64,000 nucleotides of DNA from Mycobacteriales bacterium (lineage in GTDB: Bacteria > Actinomycetota > Actinomycetes > JAFAQI01): positions 9,881-73,880 of the forward strand of contig DASSEX010000081.1 of assembly GCA_035695045.1 (NCBI GenBank), given 5' to 3'. Of this stretch, positions 5,307 through 23,969 are shown one piece after another. The notes under the pieces are model-generated. The model saw nothing but the letters and a program-made list of their open reading frames with translations. It was not told where the DNA came from and did no database searches. How positions within the stretch are numbered: the first letter of the stretch is position 1; every line of letters begins with the position of its first letter. Position numbers and translations under genes: made by a program.

Positions 5307-8132
5307 GTGCCGACGCCGAGCGAGAGTTCGACCGTCGGCGGGCTCAGACCGGACGTCAGCGTCGTCGTCATCGCCTACAACGACGCTGCACGACTGCCCG
5401 AAGCCGTGGCGTCCGTCCTCGACCAGACCTTGCGTGCGCTCGAGGTCATCGTGGTCGACGACGCGTCGACGGACGGCACCTGGGACGTCGCGCAAGCATT
5501 GGCCGAAGCGCATCCCGACCGCGTGCGCGCGATCAGGTTGCCGGAGAACTCCGGCGGCTGCTCCCGACCCCGCAACACGGGGATCGATGCCGCGCAAGGC
5601 GACTACGTCATGTTTCTCGACAGTGACGACAGTCTCGAGCGGCACGCCGCGAAGAACCTGCTGCTGACCGCGGAGCGGACGGGTGCAGACCTCGTCTCCG
5701 GCCTGTGCGTTCGGGTCAACGTGACGAACGAGAACAAGCGAACCAGGTGGTACGCGCGGCTGTATGCCGAGCACGCGACCTACGACAGCATCCGGGACGC
5801 GCCCGAGCTTCTGTTCGACACGCTGTCGACCAACAAGCTCTACCGACGCGAGTTCCTCGACCGCAACGGCATCCGGTTTCCGGACGGTCTCCATTACGAG
5901 GACCTGCTGTTCAGCACCGAGGCCTATTGCACGGCGCAGCCGATCGCCATCCTGCCCGTCGAGGTCTACCGGTGGCACGTCGTCGAGGACGCCGCGACCG
6001 CGTCGATCAGCAACCGGCGCAACAACATCGCCAACTTTCGTGACCGGCTGCAGATTCACCAGCGGATCGATGCCTACCTGGTCGCGCGCGGATTCGACGA
6101 CCTGCGACCGATCAAGGACCGGAAGTTCATCCTGCAGGACCTCAAGCTCTACCTGACCGACCTGGCACGGCGCGACGCGACGTACCAAGAAGCCTGGTTG
6201 AACATGGCCGCCGACTACCTCGAAACGGTCTCCGACGAAGCGGTCGTGAGCGCCGGCCCGCTGGCGGCGGCCACCGCGTACCTCGTCCGCCGGCGGGACC
6301 TCGACGAGACTCTGCACGCTGCCGAACTGTGGATCCACGGGCGCCTGTCCGGCGGCCTGTGCCTCGACAGCGGCCGCGCCTACCTCACCGGGCGCTACCT
6401 CGAGGACGACCTCGGCCGGGAGCTGTTGGACGTCACCGCTCTGCACCTGCACGATGCACCGTTCAGCCGTCGCAACATGCGCAACCGCCTGGTGTCGATC
6501 GCCGGTGACCGGACCGCCGAGCTGCGGGGCGAGATCAACGACCCCCTCCGTGCCATCGACGCAGACGACGAGCTGTCCGCGACGCTCGAGCTGCGGACGG
6601 CCGACGGCAGGCATCGGGTCGACATCGCCCGCCCGCAGGTCGAGCTGACGGCCCAAGGCACCCTGACCTGGCGGGCTTCACTCGCGGCACGCCGGCGACC
6701 GCCGCGGATGCCGCCGAACGTGAAGTCGTGGGGACTGTGGATGACCCTGCACCACGGCGACAGCGTCAACGTCTCCCAGGTCATCTCGACGACGGACGTG
6801 ACCGCCGGACGCAGACTCCCGTGGAAAAGGTCCCCGTGGACGGGCCAGAGCCTGCTCTGGGTCGAGCGAGGTCCTGGCGACGGAGTGTGGCTCCGGGTCG
6901 AACGTGCCTCGAAGGCCTGGCGCCTGGCTGACCGGGTGTGGTCTCGCGTGCGCCGCTCCGGTGTGTACGGCGACCTTCGACGGCTGTTCTTGTCGGCGCG
7001 CAGCCGTGGCCTCAAGTCGCTCGTCTATCGATCGGTACTCGTCCGGCTCCCTGTCCGTCGCGGAACTGCCGTGTTCGAGAGCCAGCTCGGTCGCGTGTAC
7101 GCCGACAACCCGAAGTACGTCTACCGGGCGTTGCGATCCGCCGGCGACAACCGCCGGGTCGTGTGGTCGTACACCGAGAGCACTTCTGGATGGCCGCAGG
7201 ACGCGGTGCTGGTGAAGCGAGCGAGCTGGCGGTACTTCTACGAGCTCGCCCGCGCAGAGCTGTGGGTCGACAACCAAGGGTTCCCGCCAGGAGCGCCGAA
7301 GCGGCGCGGCACCAAGTACCTCCAGACGTGGCACGGGTCGCCGTACAAGGCCATGGGCTTCGACCAGCCACAGCTGCAGTTCGGTCCGGCGGACAAGCGC
7401 GCGGAGTTCGCCGCCGGCGTCGGTCGATGGACGCACTTCTGCGTGCAGAGCCCGTTCGCGGACGACACGTTCCGTCGGGCGTTCCGGCACTCGGCCAAGT
7501 CCCTGCCCAGTGGGTACCCGCGCAACGACCCGCTGCTGCGGTACGACGCGGCGGCCGTCAAGGACCTTCGCGCCCAGCTGGAACTTCCGGACGACCGGCA
7601 GATCGTGCTCTACGCACCGACGTTCCGCGACTCCGATCGGGTCACACGCACGCGGTCGGGTCTGCGGTTGAACCTCGCACGGCTGAGCGAGCTGGTCGGG
7701 GACCGCTGCTACTTGCTCGTCCGCGCGCACTACCTCGACCGGGGCAGCGTCCCGACGCGCTACTCGAGCTTCGCGCGCGACGTCTCGGACTATCCGGACA
7801 CGACCGAGCTGTTGCTGCTGGCAGACGGCCTGATCACGGACTACTCGTCGGTGATGTTCGACTACGCCCTCCTGCGCCGGCCGATGCTCTTCTACGCCTA
7901 CGACCTAGAGCTCTACAACCAGACCCGTGGCTCCTATTTCGACCTCGAAACCGAGGCGCCGGGCCCCGTCGTCAAGACCGAGGACGGGGTCGCCGAATGG
8001 CTGAGCGACTTCCGTACGCCGCACCTCGCATACGCGGAACGCCTCGAGCGGTTCGTCGACAAGTTCTGCACCTACGAGACGGGCCACGCGTCGGAAGATG
8101 TCGTGCGCGAGTTCTTCGGCGTCGGCACATGA
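5307..8132 (+). CDS. bifunctional glycosyltransferase family 2 / CDP-glycerol:poly(glycerophosphate) glycerophosphotransferase (TagF/TagB-like) fusion
   Basis: 941 aa. N-terminal GT2 signatures VSVVVIAYND...[11 protein letters not shown]...FLDSDD (DXD). C-terminal Glyphos_transf motifs YLQTWHGSPYKAMGFD and ITDYSSVMFDY. Confidence 0.85.
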   Translation: MPTPSESSTVGGLRPDVSVVVIAYNDAARLPEAVASVLDQTLRALEVIVVDDASTDGTWDVAQALAEAHPDRVRAIRLPENSGGCSRPRNTGIDAAQGDYVMFLDSDDSLERHAAKNLLLTAERTGADLVSGLCVRVNVTNENKRTRWYARLYAEHATYDSIRDAPELLFDTLSTNKLYRREFLDRNGIRFPDGLHYEDLLFSTEAYCTAQPIAILPVEVYRWHVVEDAATASISNRRNNIANFRDRLQIHQRIDAYLVARGFDDLRPIKDRKFILQDLKLYLTDLARRDATYQEAWLNMAADYLETVSDEAVVSAGPLAAATAYLVRRRDLDETLHAAELWIHGRLSGGLCLDSGRAYLTGRYLEDDLGRELLDVTALHLHDAPFSRRNMRNRLVSIAGDRTAELRGEINDPLRAIDADDELSATLELRTADGRHRVDIARPQVELTAQGTLTWRASLAARRRPPRMPPNVKSWGLWMTLHHGDSVNVSQVISTTDVTAGRRLPWKRSPWTGQSLLWVERGPGDGVWLRVERASKAWRLADRVWSRVRRSGVYGDLRRLFLSARSRGLKSLVYRSVLVRLPVRRGTAVFESQLGRVYADNPKYVYRALRSAGDNRRVVWSYTESTSGWPQDAVLVKRASWRYFYELARAELWVDNQGFPPGAPKRRGTKYLQTWHGSPYKAMGFDQPQLQFGPADKRAEFAAGVGRWTHFCVQSPFADDTFRRAFRHSAKSLPSGYPRNDPLLRYDAAAVKDLRAQLELPDDRQIVLYAPTFRDSDRVTRTRSGLRLNLARLSELVGDRCYLLVRAHYLDRGSVPTRYSSFARDVSDYPDTTELLLLADGLITDYSSVMFDYALLRRPMLFYAYDLELYNQTRGSYFDLETEAPGPVVKTEDGVAEWLSDFRTPHLAYAERLERFVDKFCTYETGHASEDVVREFFGVGT

Positions 8133-9328
8133 CCGCAGCTGCCGAAGAACGGTCGGCGCCAGAGTCGCGTCACCGGCGCAACATCTTCATCGTCGCCAAC
8201 AACATCGAGGAAGTCGGCGGGCTGCAACGCGTCGTGCACACGCTCGCCGAAGGCTTTGCCGAACGAGGGCACGCCGTCGAGCTGATCGGCATCTCCCCCG
8301 GCCCGCCCGGAGCGCGCATCGAGCCCGGGCGCGGTTACCAGACCATGACGCTCGGGCCCGCGGAGCCCGCTGAGTGGGTGCCCCGCGGGATACGCGCAAA
8401 GCTCCGGCCGGTCAAACAGGCGAAGGAACGCTTCCGCCGACGCGTCCATGCGCGAAACGTCGGTCGGTTGCAGGCACGGTTCGACCGCGTCGAAGACGGA
8501 GTCGTCATCGTCGGTCAGATCTGGGCGATGCAGTGGGTCGCCGACGCAGACACCCGACACCTGCGCGTCATCGGGATGAGCCACGAGTCCTACGAGGCCT
8601 CCCGCGGGCTGCTGCCCACGGCCATCGGGTCGACGCGATATCGGCGGATCATGCAGCTCTACCCGCCGATCGACGCCGTCCTGCTGCTCACGGAAGTGGA
8701 TGCGCGCAAGTTCGAACAACGCGGGCTGTGCAACGTCCAGGTGATGCACAACCCCCTTCCTCAGTGGCCCGACCAGGTGTCACCTCTCACCGACAAGCGG
8801 GTGGTCGCCATCGGCCGGCTCGAGCCGGAGAAGCGATACGACCGTCTGCTGGACGCATGGAAGATTGTCGCCACACGCCACCCCGGCTGGCGACTGGACA
8901 TTTACGGCGCCGGTAGCCTCGCCATGTCACTGCATGACCAGATCGAAGAGGCCGGACTCGTGGACAGCGCAGTGTTGCAAGGACCCACCAAGGATCCGTT
9001 CAGCGTTCTTCAGCGCGCTTCGGTCCTCGCGTTGTCCTCGGAGCAGGAAGGACTGCCGCTCGTGCTGGCGGAAGCCATGGCAACCGGCGTTCCCTGCGTG
9101 GCATTCGACTGCGTGCCAGGGATCCGCGAAATCATCCGCGACGGCGAGGACGGCCTGGTCGTGCGCAACAGGGACGTCGACGCCCTCGCGGACGGGATCT
9201 GCCGACTTATCGAGGACGAGCAGCTGCGCCGGTCCTTCGGATCACGCGGGCGGCACAACATCGAGCGTTTCCGCCTGGACCGGATCCTCGACCGGTGGGA
9301 GCAGCTTTTCGAGCAGGTGGACCGATGA
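8129..9328 (+). CDS. glycosyltransferase family 4 (GT-B, retaining)
   Basis: 399 aa from the ATG overlapping the upstream stop (ATGA). Contains the GT4 EX7E region EQEGLPLVLAEAMATGVPCVAFD. The long upstream extension given in the ORF track (6938..) is shadow reading. Confidence 0.85.
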   Translation: MTAAAEERSAPESRHRRNIFIVANNIEEVGGLQRVVHTLAEGFAERGHAVELIGISPGPPGARIEPGRGYQTMTLGPAEPAEWVPRGIRAKLRPVKQAKERFRRRVHARNVGRLQARFDRVEDGVVIVGQIWAMQWVADADTRHLRVIGMSHESYEASRGLLPTAIGSTRYRRIMQLYPPIDAVLLLTEVDARKFEQRGLCNVQVMHNPLPQWPDQVSPLTDKRVVAIGRLEPEKRYDRLLDAWKIVATRHPGWRLDIYGAGSLAMSLHDQIEEAGLVDSAVLQGPTKDPFSVLQRASVLALSSEQEGLPLVLAEAMATGVPCVAFDCVPGIREIIRDGEDGLVVRNRDVDALADGICRLIEDEQLRRSFGSRGRHNIERFRLDRILDRWEQLFEQVDR

Positions 9329-9789
9329 ACCGCCTGCAGCAGATCTGGCACGAGATCGCCAAGTTCGGGCTCGTCGGTGCGGTCAACTACGTGCTCGACG
9401 TCTCCTTGTTCAACGCGCTGATCGTCGGCCCGCTGCACGACCGCCCGCTCACGTCCAAGGCGATCTCCACCGTGGTCGCGGCGACCTCGTCGTACTTCAT
9501 GAACCGCCACTGGACCTGGCGCAACAGGGCGAGGACCGGTCTTGGCCGGGAGTACGGCCTGTTCATCGTGCTCAGCGCCGTCGGGCTGGCCATCACCCTG
9601 GGATGTCTCGGGTTCGGCGAGTACGTGCTCAACCAACACTCGTGGCTCGCCCGCAACGTGTGGGGCAACGTCGTCGGCGTCGGCCTCGGCATGGTGTGGC
9701 GCTTCTGGTCGTTCAAGCGATGGGTGTTCCTGCCGGCCGGTCCGGCCGCCGACGCGGACGACGACGCGGCTCATGCGGCGCTCGTCTGA
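9325..9789 (+). CDS. GtrA family protein (polysaccharide-synthesis associated small membrane protein)
   Basis: 154 aa with 4 predicted TM helices. The N-terminal KFGLVGAVNYVLDVSLFNAL is GtrA-like. Its ATG overlaps the GT4 stop (ATGA). Confidence 0.8.
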   Translation: MNRLQQIWHEIAKFGLVGAVNYVLDVSLFNALIVGPLHDRPLTSKAISTVVAATSSYFMNRHWTWRNRARTGLGREYGLFIVLSAVGLAITLGCLGFGEYVLNQHSWLARNVWGNVVGVGLGMVWRFWSFKRWVFLPAGPAADADDDAAHAALV

Positions 9790-9799
9790 CGACGGAAGA

Positions 9800-11365
9800 T
9801 CACACGGGCGCGACCCCGTGGCGCCGGCGCGAGAATGCCCGGTCCTTGTTCCGGTACGCCGCCAGCCGGCGGATGAGCTCTGAGCGCAGCTCTTCGGGCT
9901 CGACGATCGCGTCGACGACGAGCTCACTCGCCAGCCGCACGATGTCGATGTCGGCGTTGTACTCGTCGCGCAGCTTCTGCACGTAGACCGCACGCTCGGT
10001 CTCATCCTCGATCGACTGAATGCGGTTGTAGTGGACGGCATTGACCGCCGCCTCCGCACCCATCACCGCGATCATCGCGGTGGGAAGCGCCAGCGTCGCG
10101 TCCGGCTCGAAGCCCGGCCCGGCCATCGCGTAGAGACCGGCGCCGTAGGCCTTGCGAACGATCACCGAGATCTTCGGCACGGTCGCCTCGGACACCGCGG
10201 TGATCATCTTCGCGCCGTGCCGGATGATGCCCTCCCGCTCGACGGCCGTGCCCACCATGAAGCCCGGAACGTCGGCGAGAAACACCAGGGGGACGTTGAA
10301 CGCGTCGCAGAGCTGGATGAAGCGTGCGGCCTTGTCCGCGGAGTCGACGAACAGGACGCCGCCTTTGAACATCGGGTTGTTGGCGACGATTCCGACAACC
10401 TCGCCGTCGAGACGCGCGAAGCCCACCAGCAGCTCTCGCGCCCACAGCGCATGGATCTCGAAGAACGAGTCTTCGTCGACCAGCGCCTTCACGTAGCGCC
10501 GCATGTCGAATGCCTGCCGCTCGCTGACGGGCACGAGGGAGCGCAGATCGCCGGTGCCGGCCGCCCTCGGCTCGGAGCGCGGGGGGAGCTGGGTCCAGTT
10601 CGAGGGCAGATAGGACAGATAGCACTGCACGATGTCGAGCGCGGTGGGCTCGTCCTTGGCGAGGAAGTGGCCGACGCCTGAGACGGTGCAGTGCATCTTG
10701 GCACCGCCCATCTCCTCCAGCGTCGTCTTCTCCCCGACGACCATCTCCACCATGCGAGCCGATCCGAGGTACATCGAGGCGTTGCCGTCCACCATGACGA
10801 CGACGTCACAGAACGCCGGGATGTAGGCGCCGCCCGCGGCGCTGGGACCGAACAAGGCACACACCTGAGGAATCGAGCCACTGGCCCGAACCTGGGTGTG
10901 GAAGATCTTCCCCGCTCCCCGCCGACCGGGGAACATCTCGACCTGGTCGGTGATGCGCGCGCCTGCGGAGTCGACCAACCACACCATTGGCACACCGGTG
11001 CGGTAAGCCTGCTCGATGATGCGCACGATCTTCTCGACCGTCCGGGCACCCCACGATCCGGCCTTCACCGTCGAGTCGTTGGCCATCAGACACACCGGCC
11101 GACCGTCGACGGTGGCGGTCCCGGTCACGACGCCGTCTGCCGGCAGATCGGCCGCGCCGGCGTTCGCGTAGAGCCCGTCCTCGACGAACGAGCCCGCGTC
11201 GACGAGCAGACGGATCCGCTCTCGCGCGAACAGCTTGCCCTTCTCGGCGTTCGCACTGTGGTACTTCTCGGCGCCGCCCGCGAGGATCCGCTCCCGGAGC
11301 TGGGCGAGATGGGGGTGACCTGGATCGTCGTGCTCGGCCCTGACAGCCTCGGAGTCGGCGCTCAT
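9800..11365 (-). CDS. acyl-CoA carboxylase carboxyltransferase beta subunit (AccD1/MCCase-beta-like)
   Basis: 521 aa from the internal ATG (MSADSEAVRAEH...). Carboxyltransferase N- and C-subdomains are present ([23 protein letters not shown] ... VANNPMFKGGVLFVDSADKAARF). Confidence 0.85.
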   Translation of the reverse strand: MSADSEAVRAEHDDPGHPHLAQLRERILAGGAEKYHSANAEKGKLFARERIRLLVDAGSFVEDGLYANAGAADLPADGVVTGTATVDGRPVCLMANDSTVKAGSWGARTVEKIVRIIEQAYRTGVPMVWLVDSAGARITDQVEMFPGRRGAGKIFHTQVRASGSIPQVCALFGPSAAGGAYIPAFCDVVVMVDGNASMYLGSARMVEMVVGEKTTLEEMGGAKMHCTVSGVGHFLAKDEPTALDIVQCYLSYLPSNWTQLPPRSEPRAAGTGDLRSLVPVSERQAFDMRRYVKALVDEDSFFEIHALWARELLVGFARLDGEVVGIVANNPMFKGGVLFVDSADKAARFIQLCDAFNVPLVFLADVPGFMVGTAVEREGIIRHGAKMITAVSEATVPKISVIVRKAYGAGLYAMAGPGFEPDATLALPTAMIAVMGAEAAVNAVHYNRIQSIEDETERAVYVQKLRDEYNADIDIVRLASELVVDAIVEPEELRSELIRRLAAYRNKDRAFSRRRHGVAPV

Positions 11366-11432
11366 CAAGCGGAAGCGTAGCGGCCCAGGCGTGCCCGACC
11401 GTGCACACCGCTGCGCTAGGGTCGCAGGCCCT

Positions 11433-12608
11433 ATGTCGCAACCAGATCGGCCCATCTTCATCGTCGGCTGCCCGCGATCGGGTACGACGTTGTTCCGGAC
11501 GATGCTGCATGCGCATCCACGCATCGCCGTGCCGCCGGAGACCCGGTTCGTCATGCCGGCGTATCGCCGCCGCTACGCGTTCGGTGACCTCCAGCTGACC
11601 GCGAACCGACAGCGACTCGCCAGGTGGATCGTGGATCGGGCAGAGACCCGGTTCAGCGTTCTCGAGGTCGATGCGGAGAAGGTTCGACAGGCCATCATCG
11701 ACGGGCCGCCGACCTTGGGATCAGCGTTCGGCGCCGTCTTCCGCGAGTACTCCGACAGCCATGGCAAGGCGCGCTGGGGCGACAAGCGCCCGGCCTACTA
11801 CTCGTTCATCGAGGAGCTCGACGCCCTCTTCCCGGACGCGCAGTTCATCCACGTCGTCCGGGACGGGCGGGCATGCGTGGCGTCGCTGAAACGGACACCC
11901 TGGCTCGACCACGAGCCGATTCCGTGCATGGCGACCTGGATGATGGCGATCGACTGCAGCCGCGAGTCCGGCGCGAAGCTCGGCCGGAACCGCTTCTGCG
12001 AGGTCCGTTACGAGGACCTCGTCACAGACCCGGAGAAAGAGATGCGACGGGTCTGCGAGTTCCTCGGCGAAGCCTTCGTCCCCGAGATGTGTCATCCCGA
12101 GAAGATCGCCGAGCAGGTAAACCCTGCGCATTACCAGCAACGCCGTCAGATCAGCGAGGGCATCTACACCAAGTCGATGGAGGCCTGGCGCGACGAGCTG
12201 ACACCGTGGGAGATCGCAACTTTCGAGAAGGCGGCGGGTTCGCGGCTGGCGCTCTACGGCTATGCCCCGTCCGGCATCGACCAGGAACCCCCCAAGGACA
12301 AGGTCCACGAGCTGCTCTCCGAGCACCGCCGCCTCCGCCAGAGCCTGCAGTCCCGGCGTCGTTCGGATCGGCGCAAACGCGTCGATGCCGACCGCCCCGT
12401 TGCCGCCGTACTGACCGAAGGGCAGCGCAAGGCCGCCGCCGAACCGATGAGGCGTCCGTTGGCAAGCAAGCTGCGGCGGTCCGCCCGGCCGGTCGTCCGC
12501 CGAACCCGACGGTTGTGGCGCACAATGGTCCGTCTCGAACGGCCTCCTCGCGCGGCAGCAGCGGCCCCCTCCGCCCAGCAGGCAGTCGACAACATCGAAG
12601 AGACCTGA
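11433..12608 (+). CDS. sulfotransferase family protein (second copy) with basic C-terminal tail
   Basis: About 391 aa from MSQPDRP. Contains the IFIVGCPRSGTTLF 5'-PSB P-loop and a mid-protein VVRDGRA (3'-PB-like) motif. The C-terminus is Arg/Lys-rich. Confidence 0.75.
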   Translation: MSQPDRPIFIVGCPRSGTTLFRTMLHAHPRIAVPPETRFVMPAYRRRYAFGDLQLTANRQRLARWIVDRAETRFSVLEVDAEKVRQAIIDGPPTLGSAFGAVFREYSDSHGKARWGDKRPAYYSFIEELDALFPDAQFIHVVRDGRACVASLKRTPWLDHEPIPCMATWMMAIDCSRESGAKLGRNRFCEVRYEDLVTDPEKEMRRVCEFLGEAFVPEMCHPEKIAEQVNPAHYQQRRQISEGIYTKSMEAWRDELTPWEIATFEKAAGSRLALYGYAPSGIDQEPPKDKVHELLSEHRRLRQSLQSRRRSDRRKRVDADRPVAAVLTEGQRKAAAEPMRRPLASKLRRSARPVVRRTRRLWRTMVRLERPPRAAAAAPSAQQAVDNIEET

Positions 12609-12674
12609 CGCCCGGGCGATTCGCCTGCGCGAGGTGACGACTGCCCCTACCCTCAGCCGGAAGAGGGGGTCTCG

Positions 12675-13310
12675 ATGGGTATCTCGCTGTTCAACTTCGT
12701 CCTGTTCCTGCACATCTCGCTGGTGGTCGTCGCCTTCGCGATGGCAGGCATCGTGCATGCCGGCATGCCGGCGATGGCGCGGGCGCGCGACGTCTCGCAG
12801 ATGCGCCCGTGGGCCGAGCTGCTGCACCGCCTCGACCCGCTGTTCCCCGTGGTTGCACTCTTCCTGCTCGGGCTCGGCTCCTGGCTCGTGCATCTCGGCG
12901 CGCACACCGGCGACGGGTTCTCGTTCAAGGACGGCTGGGTGATCACCTCCATCGTCACGCTGGTCGTGATCGAGGGGATCGCGGGCGCACTGCTCGCGCC
13001 GACCGCCAAGCGGCTCGTCGCCTCGATCCACGAGGCGGCGGACGGCCCGCCGAGCGCCGAGCTCCGCGTCGCCGCCCGCGATCCGAAGATCTGGTACCCC
13101 GGGCACATCGCGACGTTCGGCTTCCTCGGCATCGTATTCGTCATGGCCACCAAGCCCGCGGGTGAGTGGGCATGGCTGTTCCCGGCGGCCGGCGCTGCGA
13201 TCGGCGTCGCGCTGGCGCGGCTTCAGCTCGTGCGTCTCACCTCGACGAGCGACGGGTCGGTGCCGGCGCAGCGCGCTGCCGCAACGGAGACGGCCGTCCA
13301 GCAGGCCTGA
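12675..13310 (+). CDS. hypothetical integral membrane protein (4 TM)
   Basis: 211 aa with hydrophobic helices. Preceded by a GAAGAGGGGG RBS. No recognisable catalytic motif. Confidence 0.5.
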   Translation: MGISLFNFVLFLHISLVVVAFAMAGIVHAGMPAMARARDVSQMRPWAELLHRLDPLFPVVALFLLGLGSWLVHLGAHTGDGFSFKDGWVITSIVTLVVIEGIAGALLAPTAKRLVASIHEAADGPPSAELRVAARDPKIWYPGHIATFGFLGIVFVMATKPAGEWAWLFPAAGAAIGVALARLQLVRLTSTSDGSVPAQRAAATETAVQQA

Positions 13311-13323
13311 GGCCGCGTTCCGG

Positions 13324-14241
13324 TCAGCCGACCGGAACGGTCCGGGTCCGGGGACCCGCGCGCAGCACCTGTGACGGCAGCGTGCGACCGACGATGCGCT
13401 CGGCCGTCGCCGCGACGTCGATCATCGCGTCGAGGTCGACGCCGGTCGCGACGCCCATGTCCTCGACCATGTGCACGAGCTCCTCGGTCGCGACGTTGCC
13501 GGTGGCCCCCGGCGCGTAGGGACAGCCGCCGAGCCCGCCGACACTCGCGTCGAAGTCCGAGACACCGAGCTCGAGCGCGGCGAGGACGTTGGCGAGACCC
13601 GTGCCCCGCGTGTTGTGGAAGTGCAGGTTCAGCGGCGCGTCCGGATGCGCCGAGCGGAGCTCACCGACCAGCCGGGTGACCCGGGTGGGCGTCGCCATGC
13701 CGGTGGTGTCCCCGAACGAGATGCCGTCGGCACCGTCCCGCACGGCACGGGAGGCGACCGCGACGACCCGCTCGACCGGCACGTCTCCCTCGTAGGGGCA
13801 GCCCCAGGCGGTCGACACGATGACCTGCAAGGTCGCGCCGCGACCGTGCACCAGGTCGATGACCTCGGCGATCTCGTCGAGCGACTCGTCGGTCGAGCGG
13901 TTGATGTTCTTGCGGTTGTGCGTGTCGCTCGCACTCACCACGATCTCGAGCTCACGGAACCCCGCGTCGAGTGCGCGCTGCGCCCCTTTGAGGTTGGGCA
14001 CCAGCGCGGAGTAACGCACGTCGTCGTTGCGGGTCACGTGCTGCCACACCTCGGCGGCGTCGGCCATCTGCGGGATCGCCTTGGGGTGCACGAAGCTGAC
14101 CGCTTCGATCCGCCCGACGCCCGTCTTGGACAGCGCGTCGATCAGCTCGACCTTGGCCTCGGTCGGGACCGGCGCTTCGTTCTGTAGTCCGTCGCGCGGG
14201 CCGACCTCGCGCAGGCTGATCCGCTCCGGGAGGTCGCTCAC
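13324..14241 (-). CDS. hydroxymethylglutaryl-CoA lyase
   Basis: 305 aa. Has a TIM-barrel DRE_TIM signature (EVGPRDGLQNE ... HFHNTRGTGLAN ... GGLGGCPYAPGATGN). Confidence 0.9.
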   Translation of the reverse strand: MSDLPERISLREVGPRDGLQNEAPVPTEAKVELIDALSKTGVGRIEAVSFVHPKAIPQMADAAEVWQHVTRNDDVRYSALVPNLKGAQRALDAGFRELEIVVSASDTHNRKNINRSTDESLDEIAEVIDLVHGRGATLQVIVSTAWGCPYEGDVPVERVVAVASRAVRDGADGISFGDTTGMATPTRVTRLVGELRSAHPDAPLNLHFHNTRGTGLANVLAALELGVSDFDASVGGLGGCPYAPGATGNVATEELVHMVEDMGVATGVDLDAMIDVAATAERIVGRTLPSQVLRAGPRTRTVPVG

Positions 14242-14250
14242 GGGTCCAGG

Positions 14251-15225
14251 CTAGCCAGCGGCGGCGTCGGGCTCAGCGCGACGCAGACGACTCGCGTGCA
14301 GCAACGCGTAGCCCCGCACCGGCCGCGGTGGCACGCGGCGCAACCGGAACCGCGGGTCCTCGTCCAGCTCGGACGCGAGCTCACGGTCGACGAGGATGCT
14401 CGCCGGCCGGGCGATCGACGTCAGCCTGCTCGCGATGTTGACCGGCTCTCCGTAGACGTCACCGAGCCGGGCGAGCACGGGTCCGCAGGCGAGCCCGATT
14501 CGCAGGTCGGGCACGTCGTCAGCAGCTTCCACCCTGTCTGCCAGGTCGAGAGCGATCAGCGCTCCCTGACCCGCTTCGTCGGAGGTGAACATCACCTCGT
14601 CGCCCAGAGTCTTGACGACGCGTCCGCCGTGCTCGGCGATGACGTCGGCGGCAAGTGCCTCGAACGTGTCGACGACGCCGGCGAGCTCCGCCTCGCCGAC
14701 GTCGCGGGTCAGCGACGTGAACCCGACCAGGTCGGCGAAACCCACGACGAGCGACGCGGATGGCGACGTACCGTCGGCGAGCGCGCGCCCCGCGGTGGCG
14801 GCGAGATGACGACGCCAGACATAACCGATCAGACCCTCGACCACCGGCACCAGCTCGTGGGCGACCGCTGCCGCGTCCTCACCGGCTGCCGGATGGTCGA
14901 CATCGAATGCGGACGTGATTGCCGACACGTGCCAGTCCGCCAACCGCGCCAGCGACTGGCCCATCGCGCGGGTCATCGCCAGCTGCGTGCCGGCGTCGAT
15001 GACCCCACGCCGGACCAGTCCGTCGACCGCACGGAGCGCTTGCACGTCCTGGTTGGTGAACGCGACGTTGTCGTCGCCGACGTCCGCGAAGCCGAGAGCC
15101 CGCCACAGGATCCGGGCCTGCTCCACGGGCACGCCCGCCTGCTCCGCCACCTCGACCCGTGTGTATCGACGGTCGCCGCCGAGCAGCTCGCGCTCGAGCG
15201 CCGCCGGCACGTCCTCGGAAGTCAC
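14251..15225 (-). CDS. class III adenylate/guanylate cyclase with N-terminal regulatory region
   Basis: The C-terminal CYTH/cyclase core is VGFADLVGFTSLTRD...VKTLGDEVMF...GPVLARLGDVYGEPVNIASRL. The start is set at the GTG at 15225 to avoid a 150-nt overlap with the upstream gene; this start is uncertain. Confidence 0.7.
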   Translation of the reverse strand: MTSEDVPAALERELLGGDRRYTRVEVAEQAGVPVEQARILWRALGFADVGDDNVAFTNQDVQALRAVDGLVRRGVIDAGTQLAMTRAMGQSLARLADWHVSAITSAFDVDHPAAGEDAAAVAHELVPVVEGLIGYVWRRHLAATAGRALADGTSPSASLVVGFADLVGFTSLTRDVGEAELAGVVDTFEALAADVIAEHGGRVVKTLGDEVMFTSDEAGQGALIALDLADRVEAADDVPDLRIGLACGPVLARLGDVYGEPVNIASRLTSIARPASILVDRELASELDEDPRFRLRRVPPRPVRGYALLHASRLRRAEPDAAAG

Positions 15226-15239
15226 CCCTCGATCCTGCC

Positions 15240-15767
15240 TCAGGACGTCTGCGCGTCCGCGGCGCGTGCCACTCGCATCGACTCGTCCTCGGCATGGCGC
15301 AGCACCTGACGTTGCACCATCTCGACGGTCGGCACCTCCGGCAGGACCACCTGCCCGTGCTCGCCCGCCGACTCGATCGTCAACGTCCCGCAACGGAGCA
15401 TGCGGTCGATGACGGAGTGCCGGAAGGAGACGTCGTTGACCCGTGTGAGCGGGATGTCACGGCCGGACCGGGAGAGCACACCCGTGCGGATGACGACCCG
15501 CCTGTTGGTCAGCACGTAGCGCGTCGTCGACCACCTGAGGAACGGCCACAACGACCAGCGCAGCAGGACGAGCACCGCGACCACGAGGATCAGCCAGCGC
15601 AGCGCGGCGTGCAGTGAGCCGTCCGGGACGAGGAAGACGAGGTACGACGCGAGACCCACGACGACCGGCAGCAGCAGGGCAGGCAGGACGATCCGCTTCC
15701 AGTGCGGATGCAGGTCCAGGACGATGTGCTCGTCGTCGCCGAGCAGCCGGCTGGGGAACGGTGACAT
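15240..15767 (-). CDS. PH-domain (bPH_2/YdbS-like) membrane protein
   Basis: 175 aa from the internal ATG. Two TM helices are followed by a PH-like domain (LTNRRVVIRTGVLSRSGRDIPLTRVNDVSF). Its ATG overlaps the birA stop (ATGA). Confidence 0.7.
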   Translation of the reverse strand: MSPFPSRLLGDDEHIVLDLHPHWKRIVLPALLLPVVVGLASYLVFLVPDGSLHAALRWLILVVAVLVLLRWSLWPFLRWSTTRYVLTNRRVVIRTGVLSRSGRDIPLTRVNDVSFRHSVIDRMLRCGTLTIESAGEHGQVVLPEVPTVEMVQRQVLRHAEDESMRVARAADAQTS

Positions 15768-16573
15768 CAGCCGGTGCTCCTGACGTGCGTGACGTCGCCC
15801 GCCGACCAGCGCGCCGTCGCGCCGTCGCTGTCCTCGACGACCAGCTGCCCGCTGTCGTCGACGTCGATCGCTCGACCGGTCACCGTGCGCCCCCCAGGCA
15901 GCTCGACCCGCACCTGCACGCCGATCGTCTCGCACACCGAGCGGTACGCCGGCATCACGGCATCCGCCACTCCGCCGGCATCACGAAATGTGCGGTAACG
16001 CCGGGAGAACGACCGCAGCAGCTCCTTCACGAGCGGCTCCCGGTCGGTGCTGCCCCCCTCGATCGCCAGGCTGGTCGCGGTGTCGACGGGTCGCTCCTCC
16101 GCCCGGACTGTGACGTTGACTCCGATGCCGACGACAACGGCGTCGTCGAGACGCTCGACCAGGATCCCGCCCAGCTTGCGGCCGGAGACCAGCACGTCGT
16201 TGGGCCACTTCAAGGCACTGTTGACCTCGCCGACTCCGCGCGTCGACTCGACGACCGCGACGCCCGTCAACAACGGGATGAGCGGCAACGAGGTGACCGG
16301 CAGCTCGGGCCGCAGGAGCAGTGACATCAAGACCGAGGAGCGCGCCGGCGCCTCCCACGACCGCCCCAGCCGGCCGCGTCCGCCGCGTTGCTCCTCCGCG
16401 ATCACCACCAGACCCTCGGCGGCGCCGTCGCGCGCCGCGGTCGCGACGTCAGCATTGGTCGAGGTCGTCGATGCGCGCACCTCGAGCGCGGTCCACAACG
16501 GGTCGTCCCTCAGGACCGCACGAAGCCGGGCCGCCGACAACGGCGGCCGCTCGAGGTCCGACCACTGCGACAC
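15767..16573 (-). CDS. birA: biotin--[acetyl-CoA-carboxylase] ligase
   Basis: 268 aa. Contains the GRGRLGRSWEAP biotin-binding loop (GRGRRG(R/N)xW type) and KWPNDVL. Confidence 0.9.
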   Translation of the reverse strand: MSQWSDLERPPLSAARLRAVLRDDPLWTALEVRASTTSTNADVATAARDGAAEGLVVIAEEQRGGRGRLGRSWEAPARSSVLMSLLLRPELPVTSLPLIPLLTGVAVVESTRGVGEVNSALKWPNDVLVSGRKLGGILVERLDDAVVVGIGVNVTVRAEERPVDTATSLAIEGGSTDREPLVKELLRSFSRRYRTFRDAGGVADAVMPAYRSVCETIGVQVRVELPGGRTVTGRAIDVDDSGQLVVEDSDGATARWSAGDVTHVRSTG

Positions 16574-16582
16574 GGGCCAACG

Positions 16583-18223
16583 CTAAGGCCGATGCAGGCG
16601 AGCTGCCGTCTGTTGCGCGGCATAGCGCGCCCACGAGCCGGCCGCGATGGCACGGTCGGTGATCTGTGGCAGAGCGGTCAGCTGGAGGACGAGGCGGCCG
16701 TTGACCTCCGCGATGCGCACGCGATCGCCGACGAGGCGCCGCCACGGCGTCGGAAGCGGGTGGTCGCCCGGCGGCAGGTCCGCGTCGCGCCCCGTCAGTG
16801 GCCGGACCACGCGCTCGCCGTCACGCTGCAGCTCGACGAGCAGCCGCAGCTCGTGACCCACCGTCGGGCGGCCGAGCGCCTTGCCCAGAGCAACGAGATC
16901 GAGGCGTCCGCTGAACCGGACGTCGGCCCCCGCGTCGGTCAGCAGGAGCGGGCCGGACCACAGCACACCGCCGAGCCGCCCGCGCACGAGGATCCGGCCG
17001 GCCAGGGACTGAGCCGGCCCGAGCCGGCCGAGGACGTCGTACACGCGTCCGTCGCAGAACAGGCTGTCGCCCTCCCAGCGAGCGTGGTCGACCGTGGCGA
17101 GGAACGGTGTCGCCGCGAAGGCGGCGGAGAGCACGCCCGTCGCGGTCACGTCGAGAGCGTCGCCCGCGTCGGGATGAGCAGACGTCCAACGCAGCCGGTC
17201 GCCGCCTTCGACGGTCAGGTCGGACGCCAGGCCTCCGGTCACCGCGAAGTCGGCCGCCGCCAGCACGCCGGGCAGGTCTCCGCGGGCCGCGAGGACTGCC
17301 GCGACCCTGGGGCCGACCGGCTCGACCGGCCAGCTCCGCTCGTCGATGCCGGTCAGGTACTTCTGCGCCAGGTCCAGCAGTGCCTGCCGGTCATCGGTAC
17401 GACGACCACGGAGGTCACGCAGGAACACGGTGAAGTCCGCCGACAAGAACTTCACCTGCTTGGCGCGAACGACCGCGGCCGGCACATCGACGCGAGCGAG
17501 ATGCGCGTCGATGCGGCGATGCACCTCGAACCGGTCCTGCCAGTTGCGGAGCTCCGTGCGGTTGGTGATGGAGGGGATGTCCGCGTCACGCCGGACGTTC
17601 CAGACGTAGACCAGGTCGGGCACGACGGCGATGCGCCGGGCGCTCACGTAAGCCGCGGTCGTGAAGAGCAGATCCTCGTAGAGGAGCCCCTCCGGGAACG
17701 ACAGGTCGTTGTCCGTGAGGAAGCGGCGCCGGTAGAGCTTCGCGGGGGCAGGCGTGTCGAACAGCTGCTCCGGACGCTCGGCGATGCCGTCGACGACCGC
17801 CGCGCGGGCATAGAGCCGGCGGTGCGCCTCGATGTAGCGCGTCGGCCGGTGGTGGCGCCGCACCCACCGGCCGCACACGATGTCGGCGTCGGTGCGCCGC
17901 GCCGCGCGCAGCAGCCGGCTGCACGCCGGCCGGGGCAGCGCGTCGTCGCTGTCGAGAAACGTGACGTAGTCGCCCGTCACGAGTGACATGCCGACGTTTC
18001 GTGGGCGGCTGCAGCCCCCGCTGTTGGTCTCCAGCCGGTGGTAACGGACGCGTTCATCCGCGGCCGCGAGGGCCGCCGCGACCGTCGGCGTCTCGTCGTC
18101 CGATCCGTCGTCGACGATGACGACCTCGAGGTCGCGAAGGGTCTGCGTCGTCGCCGACCGGACAGCTGTGCCCAGGTGCTGCGCGTCGTTGAAGCAGATC
18201 ACGACGACCGACACCGCGGGCAT
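16583..18223 (-). CDS. glycosyltransferase family 2 with C-terminal non-TagF extension
   Basis: 546 aa. The N-terminal GT2 domain is paralogous to the two fusion proteins ([10 protein letters not shown]...[12 protein letters not shown]...FLDSDD). The C-terminal half has no Glyphos_transf motifs. Confidence 0.8.
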
Positions 18224-18240
18224 GCTCGTACGCTACGGCC

Positions 18241-23964: not shown

Positions 23965-23969
23965 CCGGG

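What the first reader, a model, noticed from the sequence alone, without database searches (positions are those of the whole stretch)
5307..18223. Three paralogous GT2 domains sharing the unusual [11 protein letters not shown] signature
The two 941/994-aa fusions and the 546-aa GT2 share an almost identical N-terminal architecture (V[VS]VVVI.[YF]ND...[16 protein letters not shown]...G.YV.FLDSDD). This indicates lineage-specific duplication, with each paired to a different C-terminal domain (TagF-like, degenerate TagF-like, or unknown). The divergently oriented copies suggest primase/polymerase-type division of labour, as with TagB/TagF or TarK/TarL.
Basis: seen in the sequence. Interest (0 to 1): 0.55.

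Follow-up and report, generated by a model that had tools for sequence, protein, structure and literature searches.

The report
Three TarS-like teichoic-acid glycosyltransferase paralogs
Three genes in this soil actinobacterial genome encode old, related copies of a known enzyme type that adds sugars to cell-wall teichoic acids; the family is ordinary, but one copy carries a conserved polymerase-like domain that has lost both residues such polymerases need.

Summary
Observation confirmed. A (5307-8132 +, 941 aa), B (24698-27442/27682 -, 914 or 994 aa; outside the stated coordinates) and C (16583-18223 -, 546 aa) are clear paralogs. BLASTP gives E 1e-73 to 1e-140, and all three carry (E/T)[10 protein letters not shown]...FLDSDD.

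1. The motif is neither unusual nor lineage-specific. It is the nucleotide-sugar loop of TarS/TarP/RmlT-type wall-teichoic-acid glycosyltransferases (TarS: NSGGPGKPRN). About 200 of 219 retrieved actinobacterial homolog clusters have NSGGC[SG]xPRN.
2. The copies are ancient paralogs. In an NJ tree each groups with its own orthologs, and Streptomyces/Actinomadura fusions fall between them.
3. C's "unknown" C-terminus is homologous to the middle region of A and B. The models of C (pLDDT 94) and B (89) align over about 550 columns with full-length TarS.
4. A TagB/TagF-like primase/polymerase split is not supported. Only A keeps both TagF catalytic histidines. B and nearly all of its orthologs lack them, yet the domain is conserved and keeps the TagF fold.

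Most likely, A is a bifunctional polyol-phosphate transferase/glycosyltransferase, C is a stand-alone TarS-like decorating enzyme, and B is an active glycosyltransferase with a non-canonical TagF-like domain. B sits in a conserved operon with a glycerol-1-phosphate dehydrogenase, a cytidylyltransferase and a CDP-alcohol phosphotransferase.

This is a new member of a known kind, of modest interest.

The parts
5307..8132 (+). Gene A, 941 aa. TarS-like GT2 body (catalytic + helical, aa 15-330, nt 5349-6296; beta-rich middle region, aa 331-565, nt 6297-7001) fused to a complete TagF-like domain (aa 575-936, nt 7029-8114). Motif [11 protein letters not shown] at nt 5544-5576. Catalytic-histidine equivalents H676 (TWHGS, nt 7332-7334) and H808 (RAHYL, nt 7728-7730).
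   Evidence: PF00535 E 2e-37. PF04464 342 bits over model positions 5-365 of 367. S. epidermidis TagF 3L7I E 8e-77. NCBI names it a bifunctional GT2/CDP-glycerol glycerophosphotransferase (P0220).
8129..9328 (+). GT4-family (GT-B) glycosyltransferase, 399 aa. Its ATG overlaps A's TGA stop (ATGA), so it is probably translationally coupled to A.
   Evidence: PF00534 E 5e-38. The A-like fusion in L003 is followed directly by a GT4 gene. The gene after the fusion in L004 has no Pfam hit.
16583..18223 (-). Gene C, 546 aa. Stand-alone TarS-like glycosyltransferase with a GT2 catalytic + helical part (aa 1-330) and a beta-rich C-terminal part (aa about 335-515) homologous to the middle region of A and B. 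Motif [11 protein letters not shown] at nt 17996-18028. birA follows 10 nt downstream.
   Evidence: Model pLDDT 94. Foldseek top hit is full-length TarS 5TZ8_A (E 2e-27, 549 columns), then RmlT and TarP. About 545-aa orthologs at 45-82% identity in metagenomes.
24698..27442 (-). Gene B, 914 aa by NCBI's start; the ORF extends to the ATG at 27682, giving 994 aa. TarS-like body (aa 1-310, nt 26513-27442; middle region aa 311-560, nt 25763-26512) fused to a TagF-like domain without the histidines (aa 562-904, nt 24731-25759). Motif [11 protein letters not shown] at nt 27230-27262. IPRFTP replaces TWHGSP (nt 25430-25447). TDHHP replaces TDYSS (nt 25025-25039). A deletion of about 35 aa removes the R-x-H-Y motif.
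23970..24701 (-). NTP-transferase (LicC-like cytidylyltransferase), 243 aa. Overlaps B's stop, so it lies in the same operon.
   Evidence: 1JYK CTP:phosphocholine cytidylyltransferase, E 2e-14. Conserved after B orthologs in L001 and L002.
22927..23973 (-). NAD(P)-dependent sn-glycerol-1-phosphate dehydrogenase-like protein (Fe-ADH_2), about 348 aa.
   Evidence: NF002022 E 4e-73, 246 bits, below the equivalog cut-off of 413; archaeal G1PDH 4RGQ/5FB3, E 1e-41 to 1e-42.
22155..22946 (-). Small integral-membrane CDP-alcohol phosphotransferase-like protein, 263 aa.
   Evidence: PF01066 26.6 bits, above the cut-off of 22; AF2299 4O6M, E 3e-7. A 256-263 aa gene follows B, or the cassette genes after B, in L001, L002 and L003.
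21298..22150 (-). Fourth GT2 glycosyltransferase, about 280 aa, start approximate. It has the generic motif QNVGIPAGRN...FLDDDA and is not a TarS-like paralog.
   Evidence: only E 5e-5 against the TarS-like HMM. 276-286 aa orthologs sit in the same position in L001-L003.
27547..28578 (+). GH26-like protein, divergent from B.
   Evidence: PF02156 28 bits. A weak GH26 hit lies next to B orthologs in L001-L003 and near the fusion in L004.
31412..33048 (-). ABC-2 type exporter pair: permease at 32176-33048 and an ATPase within 31412-32743 (start uncertain). KpsM/Wzm/TagG-like, a candidate polymer exporter.
   Evidence: Adjacent to the GH26-B block in L001 and L003.
11391..12608 (+). Sulfotransferase (NoeE-like). 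Possibly part of the same glycopolymer gene set; its start is probably downstream of 11554.
   Evidence: Sulfotransferase genes lie next to the ABC exporter in L003 and L004.

Best explanation
The three genes are ancient paralogs of the TarS/TarP/RmlT type of inverting GT-A (GT2) glycosyltransferase, which glycosylates polyol-phosphate wall teichoic acids in the cytoplasm. Each has the complete TarS-like body: catalytic, helical and beta-rich oligomerisation/'turret' subdomains.

The shared [10 protein letters not shown]...FLDSDD...YEDLLF string makes up the active site. It comprises the nucleotide-sugar-binding loop, the metal-binding DxD and the Glu-Asp catalytic pair.

- A carries this body fused to a complete TagF-like GT-B domain. 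It is the widespread actinobacterial 'bifunctional glycosyltransferase/CDP-glycerol glycerophosphotransferase'. Its TagF-like domain is inferred to add glycerol- (or other polyol-) phosphate from a CDP-alcohol onto a lipid-linked chain. Its TarS-like domain is inferred to add a beta-linked sugar from a nucleotide sugar. Together with the translationally coupled GT4, this would give a glycosylated teichoic-acid-like polymer, exported by the nearby ABC-2 transporter.
- C is a stand-alone TarS-like decorating enzyme.
- B keeps an intact TarS-like glycosyltransferase, but its TagF-like domain has lost both invariant histidines and other active-site motifs while keeping the fold under selection. 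It most likely acts as a non-catalytic CDP-alcohol/polymer-binding or partner-binding module, or as a re-tooled one. It would work with the co-transcribed G1P dehydrogenase, cytidylyltransferase, CDP-alcohol phosphotransferase and GT2.

Shown: homology, folds, the presence or absence of catalytic residues, conservation and synteny. Inferred: substrates, products, and the role of B's domain.
For: - TarS-like identity. The best PDB sequence hits for the GT2 regions of C and A are TarS, TarP and RmlT (E 1e-17 to 1e-23), with aligned NSGG..(K/R)PRN, DSDD and (A/Y)ED(Q/L)LF. Foldseek aligns C (pLDDT 94) and the N-terminal about 550 aa of B (pLDDT 89) with full-length TarS 5TZ8_A over 549-550 columns (E 2e-27 and 2e-26), followed by RmlT and TarP.
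- Motif residue roles. [quoted passage not shown]
- Middle-domain homology. An HMM built without C hits C residues 310-544 at E 3.6e-16.
- A's TagF domain. It matches S. epidermidis TagF at E 9e-68 and keeps QTWHG and RAHY, the positions mutated in the PDB entries 3L7J (H to N) and 3L7M (H to A). Both histidines are critical in TagB, TagF, TarL and the capsule polymerases (PMC10901376; PMC5974469; PMC11666461).
- B's domain. In the 13 B-clade members of alignment A3 (B plus 12 orthologs), 12 of 13 lack the first histidine, none has a histidine at the second position, and all but P0108 share the deletion around it. YAPTxR and DYSS are also replaced. Mean pairwise identity of this domain within the clade is 57%, against 54% for the middle region and 72% for GT2. 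The modelled fold matches TagF with TM 0.73-0.77.
- Operon. The B / NTP-transferase / G1PDH / CDP-OH-PT / GT2 order is conserved in L001 and L002. L003 has the core B / CDP-OH-PT / GT2.
- Family size. More than 1,100-1,500 homolog clusters were found, mostly named bifunctional GT2/CDP-glycerol glycerophosphotransferase.
- Precedent for a non-catalytic role. Catalytically inactive Cps7A mutants still stimulate long-chain synthesis (PMC11666461).
Against: - No member of the actinobacterial GT2-TagF fusion family turned up as biochemically characterised in the literature searches, so donors, acceptors and products are inferred.
- The TarS poly-RboP-binding residue H253 aligns with an invariant Asp in C (at the edge of the local alignment). 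The acceptor may therefore differ from poly-ribitol phosphate.
- The window has no TagO, TagA, TagB, TagD or LCP genes, so a complete teichoic-acid pathway is not demonstrated here.
- Loss of the H444 equivalent does not by itself prove inactivity. The active Gro3P transferase Cps7A has Tyr at that position.
- The organism is an uncultured MAG, so there is no cell-wall chemistry.
Confidence: 0.7

Rival explanations
1. A recent lineage-specific triplication produced a TagB/TagF- or TarK/TarL-like primase/polymerase pair (A and B) plus an accessory enzyme (C).
For: A and B share the same three-part architecture and lie within 20 kb of each other. TagF-like paralog pairs with split roles are known in Bacillus and Staphylococcus.
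Against: B lacks both histidines that are essential in TagB as well as TagF. C has no TagF-like domain. A is closer to Streptomyces and Actinomadura fusions than to B. The genes belong to separate transcription units separated by housekeeping genes.
Confidence: 0.05
2. A is a main-chain co-polymerase like the GT-A/TagF-like capsule polymerases (Cps1B, CslB). Its two domains alternate to build a poly(glycosyl-polyol phosphate) or poly(oligosaccharide phosphate) backbone, rather than decorating a poly(glycerol phosphate) chain.
For: It has the same N-terminal GT-A + C-terminal TagF-like order as the characterised capsule polymerases, whose domains act independently and alternately (PMC5974469). 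That paper notes that the biosynthesis of type II wall teichoic acids, which have such backbones, is little understood. From my own knowledge, not tested here, such backbones have been described in actinomycete walls.
Against: A's GT-A part is specifically TarS/TarP/RmlT-like, including the oligomerisation and turret subdomains. These enzymes glycosylate pre-formed chains. There is no TPR domain. A's TagF domain is closest to the homopolymerase S. epidermidis TagF.
Confidence: 0.3
3. B's TagF-like domain is not dead but re-tooled. New residues, such as the conserved His-His in T(D/Q)HHP, would catalyse transfer from a different donor, for example CDP-sn-glycerol-1-phosphate made by the adjacent G1P dehydrogenase and cytidylyltransferase.
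For: HH replaces the donor-binding YS/SS positions in 10 of the 13 B-clade members in A3; the other three have HA or AA. The domain is as conserved as the rest of the protein and keeps the TagF fold. Active TagF-like Cps7A lacks the H444 equivalent. The G1PDH/cytidylyltransferase genes are co-transcribed with B.
Against: The loop carrying the second histidine is deleted and the YAPTxR motif is lost. L003 has a B ortholog without the adjacent G1PDH and NTP-transferase genes. A separate CDP-alcohol phosphotransferase in the operon could supply the phosphotransfer step.
Confidence: 0.25
4. B is a decaying gene, a pseudogenised fusion whose TagF half is drifting.
For: It has a low PF04464 score split into two stretches, an internal deletion, and has lost the catalytic residues.
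Against: The frame is intact over 914 codons with GC3 of 0.84, typical of coding sequence here. The same substitutions and deletion recur in nearly all orthologs at 50-67% identity. Fifty-six columns of the domain are invariant across the clade. The model is confident and the synteny is conserved.
Confidence: 0.03

Closest known systems
S. aureus TarS (PDB 5TZ8/5TZE), TarP (6H1J) and L. monocytogenes RmlT (8BZ4-8): GT2 wall-teichoic-acid glycosyltransferases
   Same: The GT-A catalytic domain has the NSGxxxxPRN loop, DSDD and the E-D catalytic pair. The helical, oligomerisation and turret subdomains are also shared. C is about the same length as TarS (546 aa against 572-573), and models of C and B align with full-length TarS.
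   Different: Sequence identity is only about 18-22%. There is a Cys in the loop (GGCS). TarS H253, which binds phosphate of poly-RboP, aligns with Asp. The oligomeric state is unknown. In A and B the body is fused to a TagF-like domain. Donor sugar and acceptor are unknown.
S. epidermidis/B. subtilis TagF and S. aureus TarL (TagF-like polyol-phosphate polymerases, PF04464)
   Same: A's C-terminal domain matches TagF at E 9e-68 and keeps both invariant histidines and the YAPTxR and TDYSS motifs. B's domain keeps the fold (TM 0.73-0.77). Residues 4-114 of the 729-aa S. epidermidis TagF chain themselves match the GT2 region (E 3e-8), so a GT2-like + TagF arrangement is not confined to actinobacteria.
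   Different: B lacks both histidines and the loop carrying the second one. The N-terminal region here is a complete, apparently active TarS-like enzyme, not the poorly defined N-terminal domain of TagF or TarL.
GT-A/TagF-like group 2 capsule polymerases of Gram-negative pathogens (Cps1B, Cps12B, CslB, Ccs2; Litschko et al. 2018, PMC5974469)
   Same: An N-terminal Mg2+-dependent GT-A domain and a TagF-like domain sit in one polypeptide. The two histidines are essential and the domains are independently active.
   Different: The capsule enzymes' GT-A was modelled on K4CP rather than TarS. They carry TPR domains and sit in kps-type capsule loci. Here there is a TarS-like beta-rich middle region, no TPR, and an actinobacterial housekeeping neighbourhood.
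NCBI-annotated actinobacterial 'bifunctional glycosyltransferase family 2 protein/CDP-glycerol:glycerophosphate glycerophosphotransferase' (about 950 aa; Streptomyces, Actinomadura, Embleya and others)
   Same: A is a member by architecture, length and 41-47% identity, and NCBI gives it this name.
   Different: The literature searches found no characterised representative. B is a divergent side branch without the histidines. C is the unfused form.

Membership tests
TarS/TarP/RmlT-type WTA glycosyltransferases (GT2, GT-A) | GT-A catalytic domain with a DxD metal site | tested here: met
   PF00535 E 1e-32 to 1e-37 in A, B and C. FLDSDD aligns with TarS FVDSDD.
TarS/TarP/RmlT-type WTA glycosyltransferases (GT2, GT-A) | Nucleotide-sugar loop N-S-G-x4-P-R-N (RmlT N86...R94) | tested here: met
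   (E/T)[10 protein letters not shown] in A, B and C against TarS NSGGPGKPRN and TarP NSGNASVPRN. Residue roles come from PMC11697029.
TarS/TarP/RmlT-type WTA glycosyltransferases (GT2, GT-A) | Glu-Asp catalytic pair (RmlT E197/D198, conserved in TarS and TarP) | tested here: met
   YEDLLF is invariant in A, B and C and aligns with TarS AEDQLF.
TarS/TarP/RmlT-type WTA glycosyltransferases (GT2, GT-A) | Helical + oligomerisation + turret subdomains after the catalytic domain | tested here: met
   Foldseek aligns C and B with full-length TarS 5TZ8_A over 549-550 columns, E 2e-27 and 2e-26. For A this rests on the HMM and alignment only.
TarS/TarP/RmlT-type WTA glycosyltransferases (GT2, GT-A) | Poly-RboP phosphate-binding residues (TarS H253/R258; RmlT H268/R273) | tested here: inconclusive
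   TarS ...FLNRHF aligns with C ...FLSADF, so H253 falls opposite the invariant D263, but this is the last column of a local alignment. R258 was not covered.
TarS/TarP/RmlT-type WTA glycosyltransferases (GT2, GT-A) | Glycosylates a wall teichoic acid chain | not testable with these tools
   Needs enzyme assays or cell-wall chemistry.
TagF-like polyol-phosphate transferases (PF04464) | TagF-type GT-B-like fold | tested here: met
   A: PF04464 342 bits, full length; TagF E 9e-68. B: Foldseek against 3L7I/3L7J, TM 0.73-0.77 over about 410 columns.
TagF-like polyol-phosphate transferases (PF04464) | Two invariant catalytic histidines (TagF H444 in WHG; the second His in R-x-H-Y, called H584 in the literature) | tested here: not met
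   Met in A (TWHGS, RAHYL). Not met in B (IPRFTP; second motif deleted) or in its clade: 12 of 13 members lack the first histidine and none has the second. C has no such domain.
TagF-like polyol-phosphate transferases (PF04464) | Other active-site motifs (YAPTxR; TDYSSxxFD) | tested here: not met
   A has YAPTFR and TDYSSVMFD. The B clade has variable L..C.. in place of the first and T(D/Q)HHPAMF(D/E) in place of the second.
GT-A/TagF-like capsule polymerases (Litschko 2018) | GT-A + TagF-like domains in one chain | tested here: met
   A. B has the architecture only.
GT-A/TagF-like capsule polymerases (Litschko 2018) | TPR domain and a group 2 capsule (kps) locus | tested here: not met
   No TPR hit in Pfam. 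The neighbours are actinobacterial housekeeping genes.
TagB/TagF (TarK/TarL) primase-polymerase pair | Two catalytically competent TagF-like enzymes acting in sequence | tested here: not met
   A is the only TagF-like domain in the 64-kb window with both histidines.

The most novel reading that the evidence does not exclude
The B operon (B, cytidylyltransferase, G1P dehydrogenase, membrane CDP-alcohol phosphotransferase, GT2, with the GH26-like gene and ABC-2 exporter nearby) makes a wall glycopolymer containing sn-glycerol-1-phosphate by a cytoplasmic CDP-glycerol route. Phosphotransfer has moved from the TagF-like domain to a CDP-alcohol phosphotransferase. The histidine-less TagF-like domain survives as a chain- or donor-binding scaffold for the attached TarS-like glycosyltransferase. 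That would be a TagF-independent way of building a teichoic-type polymer with the 'lipoteichoic' glycerol stereochemistry.
Probability: 0.12. Interest if true: 0.65.

Novelty: new member of a known kind. Interest (0 to 1): 0.3.

Why it matters
The paralogy itself is ordinary. These are members of a very large, already annotated actinobacterial family, and the 'signature' is the active-site loop that TarS, TarP and RmlT share.

Three points are useful:
- The N-terminal half of the uncharacterised actinobacterial GT2-TagF fusions can now be read as a complete TarS-like teichoic-acid glycosyltransferase. This gives concrete predictions for the active site and the oligomerisation region.
- The unfused 546-aa form is the same enzyme without the polymerase domain.
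- A small, conserved, soil-derived clade carries a TagF-like domain that has lost both catalytic histidines. It sits in a conserved operon with an archaeal-type glycerol-1-phosphate dehydrogenase, a cytidylyltransferase and a CDP-alcohol phosphotransferase. This gives a testable lead on non-canonical teichoic-type polymer synthesis, and on what non-catalytic TagF-like domains do. Such domains recur in other actinobacterial proteins.

Tried and rejected
- Further paralogs. I searched the whole window in six frames with HMMs of the TarS-like, middle and TagF-like regions. Only A, B and C (and A and B for TagF) were found.
- Other teichoic-acid genes. I looked for TagO, TagA, TagB, TagD and LCP genes by Pfam/NCBIfam on the plausible ORFs. 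None is present, and the rest of the window is housekeeping.
- Equivalog assignment. NCBIfam gave none: TarF 248 bits against a cut-off of 550, and TarL 111 against 1000.
- First tree attempt. A Biopython bootstrap run timed out. I redid it with numpy distances and NJ. Backbone support is weak (44-48%), so only the conclusion that the three copies are not each other's nearest relatives is used.
- Cultured B-type genomes. A scan of GTDB species representatives with a B-clade C-domain profile found none above 39% identity. It found related, shorter histidine-poor 'DHA' TagF-like proteins in Actinomadura, Spirillospora and Nonomuraea.
- Literature. Searches for characterised actinobacterial GT2-TagF fusions, for pseudo-TagF domains, and for G1P dehydrogenase linked to teichoic acids found nothing directly relevant. 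One query was malformed.
- B as a pseudogene was considered and rejected.
- Divergent promoter sharing between the copies was considered and rejected, because they are not adjacent.

Full report
**What is there.**
The window is high-GC (about 70%) DNA from an uncultured actinobacterium. The 546-aa protein is 100% identical to a protein of 'MAG TPA: Mycobacteriales bacterium' on a 119-kb contig.
- A = 5307-8132 (+), 941 aa.
- C = 16583-18223 (-), 546 aa.
- B = 24698-27682 (-), 994 aa from its first ATG.

B lies outside the coordinates given in the finding. NCBI calls B as 914 aa, starting at the GTG at 27442. There is no other in-frame start codon between the two. The extra 80 residues are Arg-rich and have no counterpart in orthologs. 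The length is therefore 914 or 994 aa and remains unresolved.

**Observation check.**
The similarity is far beyond chance:
- A-C: 45% identity over 386 aa, E 3e-73.
- B-C: 40% over 487 aa, E 3e-82.
- A-B: 36% over 895 aa, E 1e-140.

All three carry (E/T)[16 protein letters not shown] and YEDLLF. Pfam finds GT2 (PF00535) in all three. The TagF-like family PF04464 is full-length in A (342 bits), weaker and split in B (147 bits), and absent in C. A six-frame HMM scan of the whole window finds no further copy of any of the three regions. The fourth GT2 (21298-about 22150, -) is only distantly related and has the generic QNVGIPAGRN in place of the motif.

**What the shared N-terminal region is.**
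The closest solved structures by sequence are the wall-teichoic-acid glycosyltransferases S. aureus TarS, S. aureus TarP and L. monocytogenes RmlT. TarS reads LETNSGGPGKPRNV where C reads [14 protein letters not shown]. TarP reads NSGNASVPRN. FVDSDD and AEDQLF of TarS align with FLDSDD and YEDLLF.

The RmlT paper assigns these positions as follows (PMC11697029):
- N86 contacts the nucleotide base and W89 contacts the sugar.
- D112/D113 bind Mg2+.
- E197/D198 are the catalytic pair, conserved in TarS and TarP.

The 'unusual signature' is therefore the active-site loop of this enzyme subfamily. Among the 219 homolog clusters retrieved up to that point, about 200 have NSGGC[SG]xPRN and 75 have exactly [10 protein letters not shown]. 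Many Streptomyces proteins have NSGGCGEPRN. The motif is not universal in GT2, but it is neither rare nor specific to this lineage.

**The 'unknown' C-terminus of C.**
The alignment of A, B and C continues well past the Pfam GT2 domain. An HMM of the fusions' middle region (A residues 331-565), built from A, B and 18 homologs without C, hits C residues 310-544 at E 3.6e-16 over nearly the whole model.

An AlphaFold model of C (40-sequence alignment, pLDDT 94, pTM 0.91) has full-length TarS as its best Foldseek hit in the PDB. The hit is 5TZ8_A at E 2e-27 over 549 aligned columns, followed by RmlT and TarP. The catalytic and helical part superposes on TarS 1-349 with TM about 0.8. The low global TM (about 0.5) is what different subdomain orientations would produce; I did not check this.

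A full-length model of B (pLDDT 89) behaves the same way over its first about 550 residues (5TZ8_A, E 2e-26, 550 columns). C is therefore a stand-alone TarS-like enzyme, and A and B are the same enzyme with a TagF-like domain appended. About 545-aa orthologs of C at 45-82% identity occur on many metagenomic contigs, so the short form is not a truncation artefact.

**Age of the duplication.**
A is 41-45% identical to fusions from Streptomyces, Embleya, Actinomadura, Actinoallomurus and a Frankiaceae MAG, but only 35-36% identical to B. I built an NJ tree of the first 360 residues with 64 sequences, the TarS outgroup taken, and 100 bootstraps.
- B and its ten sampled orthologs form a clade with 98% support.
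- A groups with its own orthologs plus others.
- C's core clade branches below all fusions.
- The smallest clade containing any two window copies holds 46 to 62 of the sampled actinobacterial sequences.

Backbone support is weak, so I use only the robust point: the three copies are not each other's nearest relatives. Orthologs of A, B and C also co-occur on contigs of related MAGs. Examples are L001 and L002 for B and C, and shared contig lengths for P0221/P0003 and P0223/P0007 for A and C. These are ancient paralogs retained together, not a lineage-specific burst.

**The TagF-like domains.**
The PDB holds S. epidermidis TagF wild type and two mutants. Comparing their sequences in the alignments shows the mutated positions directly: QTW[H]GTP (H to N) and LLRM[H]YL (H to A). 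Both histidines are reported as critical in TagB, TagF and TarL (H300/H433) and in the capsule polymerases (Cps7D H612/H743, Cps3D H479/H609).

A keeps both (TWHGS at H676, RAHYL at H808) and also YAPTFR and TDYSSVMFD. B has IPRFTP at the first site. A deletion of about 35 residues removes the second, with L..DCD in place of YAPTFR and TDHHPAMFD in place of TDYSSVMFD.

The same changes recur in B's orthologs at 50-67% identity. In the 13 B-clade sequences of alignment A3:
- The first histidine is R, P, D or A in 12 of 13.
- None has a histidine at the second position.
- All but P0108 share the deletion.
- 10 of 13 have the new His-His.

The domain is nevertheless maintained:
- Mean pairwise identity within the clade is 57%, against 54% for the middle region and 72% for GT2.
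- 56 columns are invariant.
- The model is confident and matches TagF with TM 0.73-0.77 over about 410 columns.

It is thus a conserved, non-canonical TagF-like domain and not a pseudogene. Because the active Gro3P transferase Cps7A has Tyr at the H444 position, I do not claim that inactivity is proven. However, the loss of both histidines plus two further motifs makes the canonical mechanism very unlikely.

**How common is this variant?**
A profile of the B-clade C-domain, searched against 1.84 billion representatives, finds 8,625 TagF-like proteins at E <= 1e-3. Only about six representatives at 50% clustering are of the B type, and scores then fall from 484 to 361 to 344 bits. Of the nearest about 170 aligned domains, 145-153 keep each histidine.

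The exceptions fall into three groups:
- The B type.
- A 'DHA' type of about 520-580 aa, also present in cultured Actinomadura xylanilytica, Spirillospora, A. barringtoniae and Nonomuraea (38-39% identical to B's domain for the three closest, 34% for A. barringtoniae).
- The second domains of about 1,600-aa tandem TagF-like proteins.

Histidine-less TagF-like domains are therefore a recurring minority in actinobacteria, and I found no description of them in the literature.

**Genomic context.**
The three genes are scattered through a housekeeping backbone that has the same gene order in the related MAG contigs L001 and L002. It includes chorismate-binding enzyme, purK, fadE, two carboxyltransferases, HMG-CoA-lyase-like protein, adenylate cyclase, birA and accA.

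- A is followed by a GT4 glycosyltransferase whose ATG overlaps A's stop as ATGA.
- C is followed 10 nt later by birA. C is separated by only 17 nt from the divergent pccB start, in this window and in L001 alike.
- B heads an operon. After B come a LicC-like NTP-transferase (1JYK, E 2e-14) and a glycerol-1-phosphate dehydrogenase-like protein (NF002022, E 4e-73; archaeal G1PDH structures, E 1e-42). These are followed by a 263-aa CDP-alcohol phosphotransferase-like membrane protein (PF01066; AF2299, E 3e-7) and a small GT2.

This order is conserved behind B orthologs in L001 and L002. In L003 the core B / 256-aa protein / GT2 remains without the first two genes. A GH26-like gene and an ABC-2 exporter pair lie next to B in this window and next to its orthologs in L001 and L003. 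L002 has the GH26-like gene but no exporter on the contig stretch read.

In a Frankiaceae MAG (L004) a canonical fusion sits beside an LCP ligase, a sulfotransferase, the exporter and the same G1PDH cassette. This supports a cell-wall glycopolymer role for the whole gene set. The window itself has no TagO, TagA, TagB, TagD or LCP gene.

**Mechanism proposed.**
Shown: the folds, the catalytic residues, the conservation and the synteny. Inferred from the known chemistry of TarS/TarP/RmlT and TagF:
- A adds polyol-phosphate from a CDP-alcohol through its TagF-like domain, using a His base and a His acting on the leaving group. It adds a beta-linked sugar from a nucleotide sugar through its TarS-like domain, using DxD-bound metal and an Asp base. 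This happens on a lipid-linked chain at the inner face of the membrane, together with the coupled GT4.
- C decorates the chain in trans.
- B glycosylates through its intact TarS-like domain. Its TagF-like domain binds the donor, the chain or a partner without canonical catalysis. One precedent is that inactive Cps7A mutants still promote long-chain synthesis. The phosphotransfer step in B's operon may be supplied by the CDP-alcohol phosphotransferase, using CDP-glycerol made from G1P.

It cannot be decided here whether A's sugar ends up in the side chain or in the backbone, as in GT-A/TagF-like capsule polymerases. I favour side-chain or mixed because the GT part is specifically TarS-like.

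The paralogy and the 'degenerate TagF-like' description of B are right. Four claims are not supported: that the signature is unusual, that the duplication is lineage-specific, that the C-terminal partners differ (for C), and that there is a TagB/TagF-type primase/polymerase division of labour. The motif core is shared with the Firmicute TarS/TarP/RmlT enzymes, but these are related rather than unrelated GT2s.

**Novelty.**
A and C are new members of known kinds. B is a variant of a known kind: it keeps the TagF fold, has lost the catalytic histidines and is conserved, in a G1P-dehydrogenase operon. B is the only part a specialist might want to follow up. Overall interest is 0.3.

Noticed in passing
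window 21298-24701 (-): A conserved cassette lies downstream of B: LicC-like NTP-transferase, archaeal-type sn-glycerol-1-phosphate dehydrogenase-like protein, a 263-aa CDP-alcohol phosphotransferase-like membrane protein and a small GT2. It suggests a CDP-glycerol route starting from G1P rather than G3P, in a bacterial cell-wall locus.
   Followed up: partly
window 11391-12608 (+); also L003 5885-6961 and L004 4282-5409: A NoeE-like sulfotransferase (PF13469). As called, it overlaps the end of the carboxyltransferase gene at 9800-11554 by about 160 nt. Sulfotransferase genes sit next to the ABC-2 exporter in related loci, which hints at a sulfated glycopolymer.
   Followed up: no
window 27547-28578 (+); L001 8860-9834, L002 1577-2647, L003 8836-9855, L004 15624-16661: A weakly GH26-like protein sits immediately divergent from B and its orthologs, and near the canonical fusion in L004. 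It is a conserved partner of unknown role.
   Followed up: no
window 8129-9328 (+): The ATG of a GT4 glycosyltransferase overlaps the TGA of gene A (ATGA). The first GC3-based gene call missed it because the long ORF in that frame begins inside A.
   Followed up: yes
window 18224-18240: Only 17 nt separate the divergent start codons of C (18223, -) and the carboxyltransferase pccB (18241, +). The spacing is the same in L001, so either the starts are mis-set or the two genes share an extremely compact control region.
   Followed up: no
PDB 3L7I chain (S. epidermidis TagF, 729 aa), residues 4-114: The N-terminus of canonical TagF itself matches the GT2 region of C (E 3e-8) and gives a second matched stretch with A. 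A GT2-like + TagF arrangement therefore also exists in Firmicutes.
   Followed up: no
P0322, P0330, P0337, P0338, P0348 (about 1,600-aa proteins); L005, L006, L035, L060: Other actinobacterial TagF-like domains lack one or both catalytic histidines. They are the second domains of tandem TagF-like giants and a 'TDHA' type of about 520-630 aa in cultured Actinomadura, Spirillospora and Nonomuraea.
   Followed up: partly
window 3014-4045 (-): A 343-aa ORF with coding-like GC3 (0.86) has no Pfam or NCBIfam hit. It lies between purK and the acyl-CoA dehydrogenase.
   Followed up: no
window 28584-31415 (-): A UPF0182 family membrane protein (943 aa, 806 bits) is inserted between the GH26-B block and the ABC-2 exporter. 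It is absent from that position in L001 and L003.
   Followed up: no
window 27443-27682 (-): B's ORF has an 80-codon Arg-rich leader with no internal start codon. NCBI's GTG start at 27442 trims the protein to begin inside the first beta-strand, whereas orthologs start 5-15 residues upstream of it. The true start, possibly non-canonical, is unresolved.
   Followed up: partly
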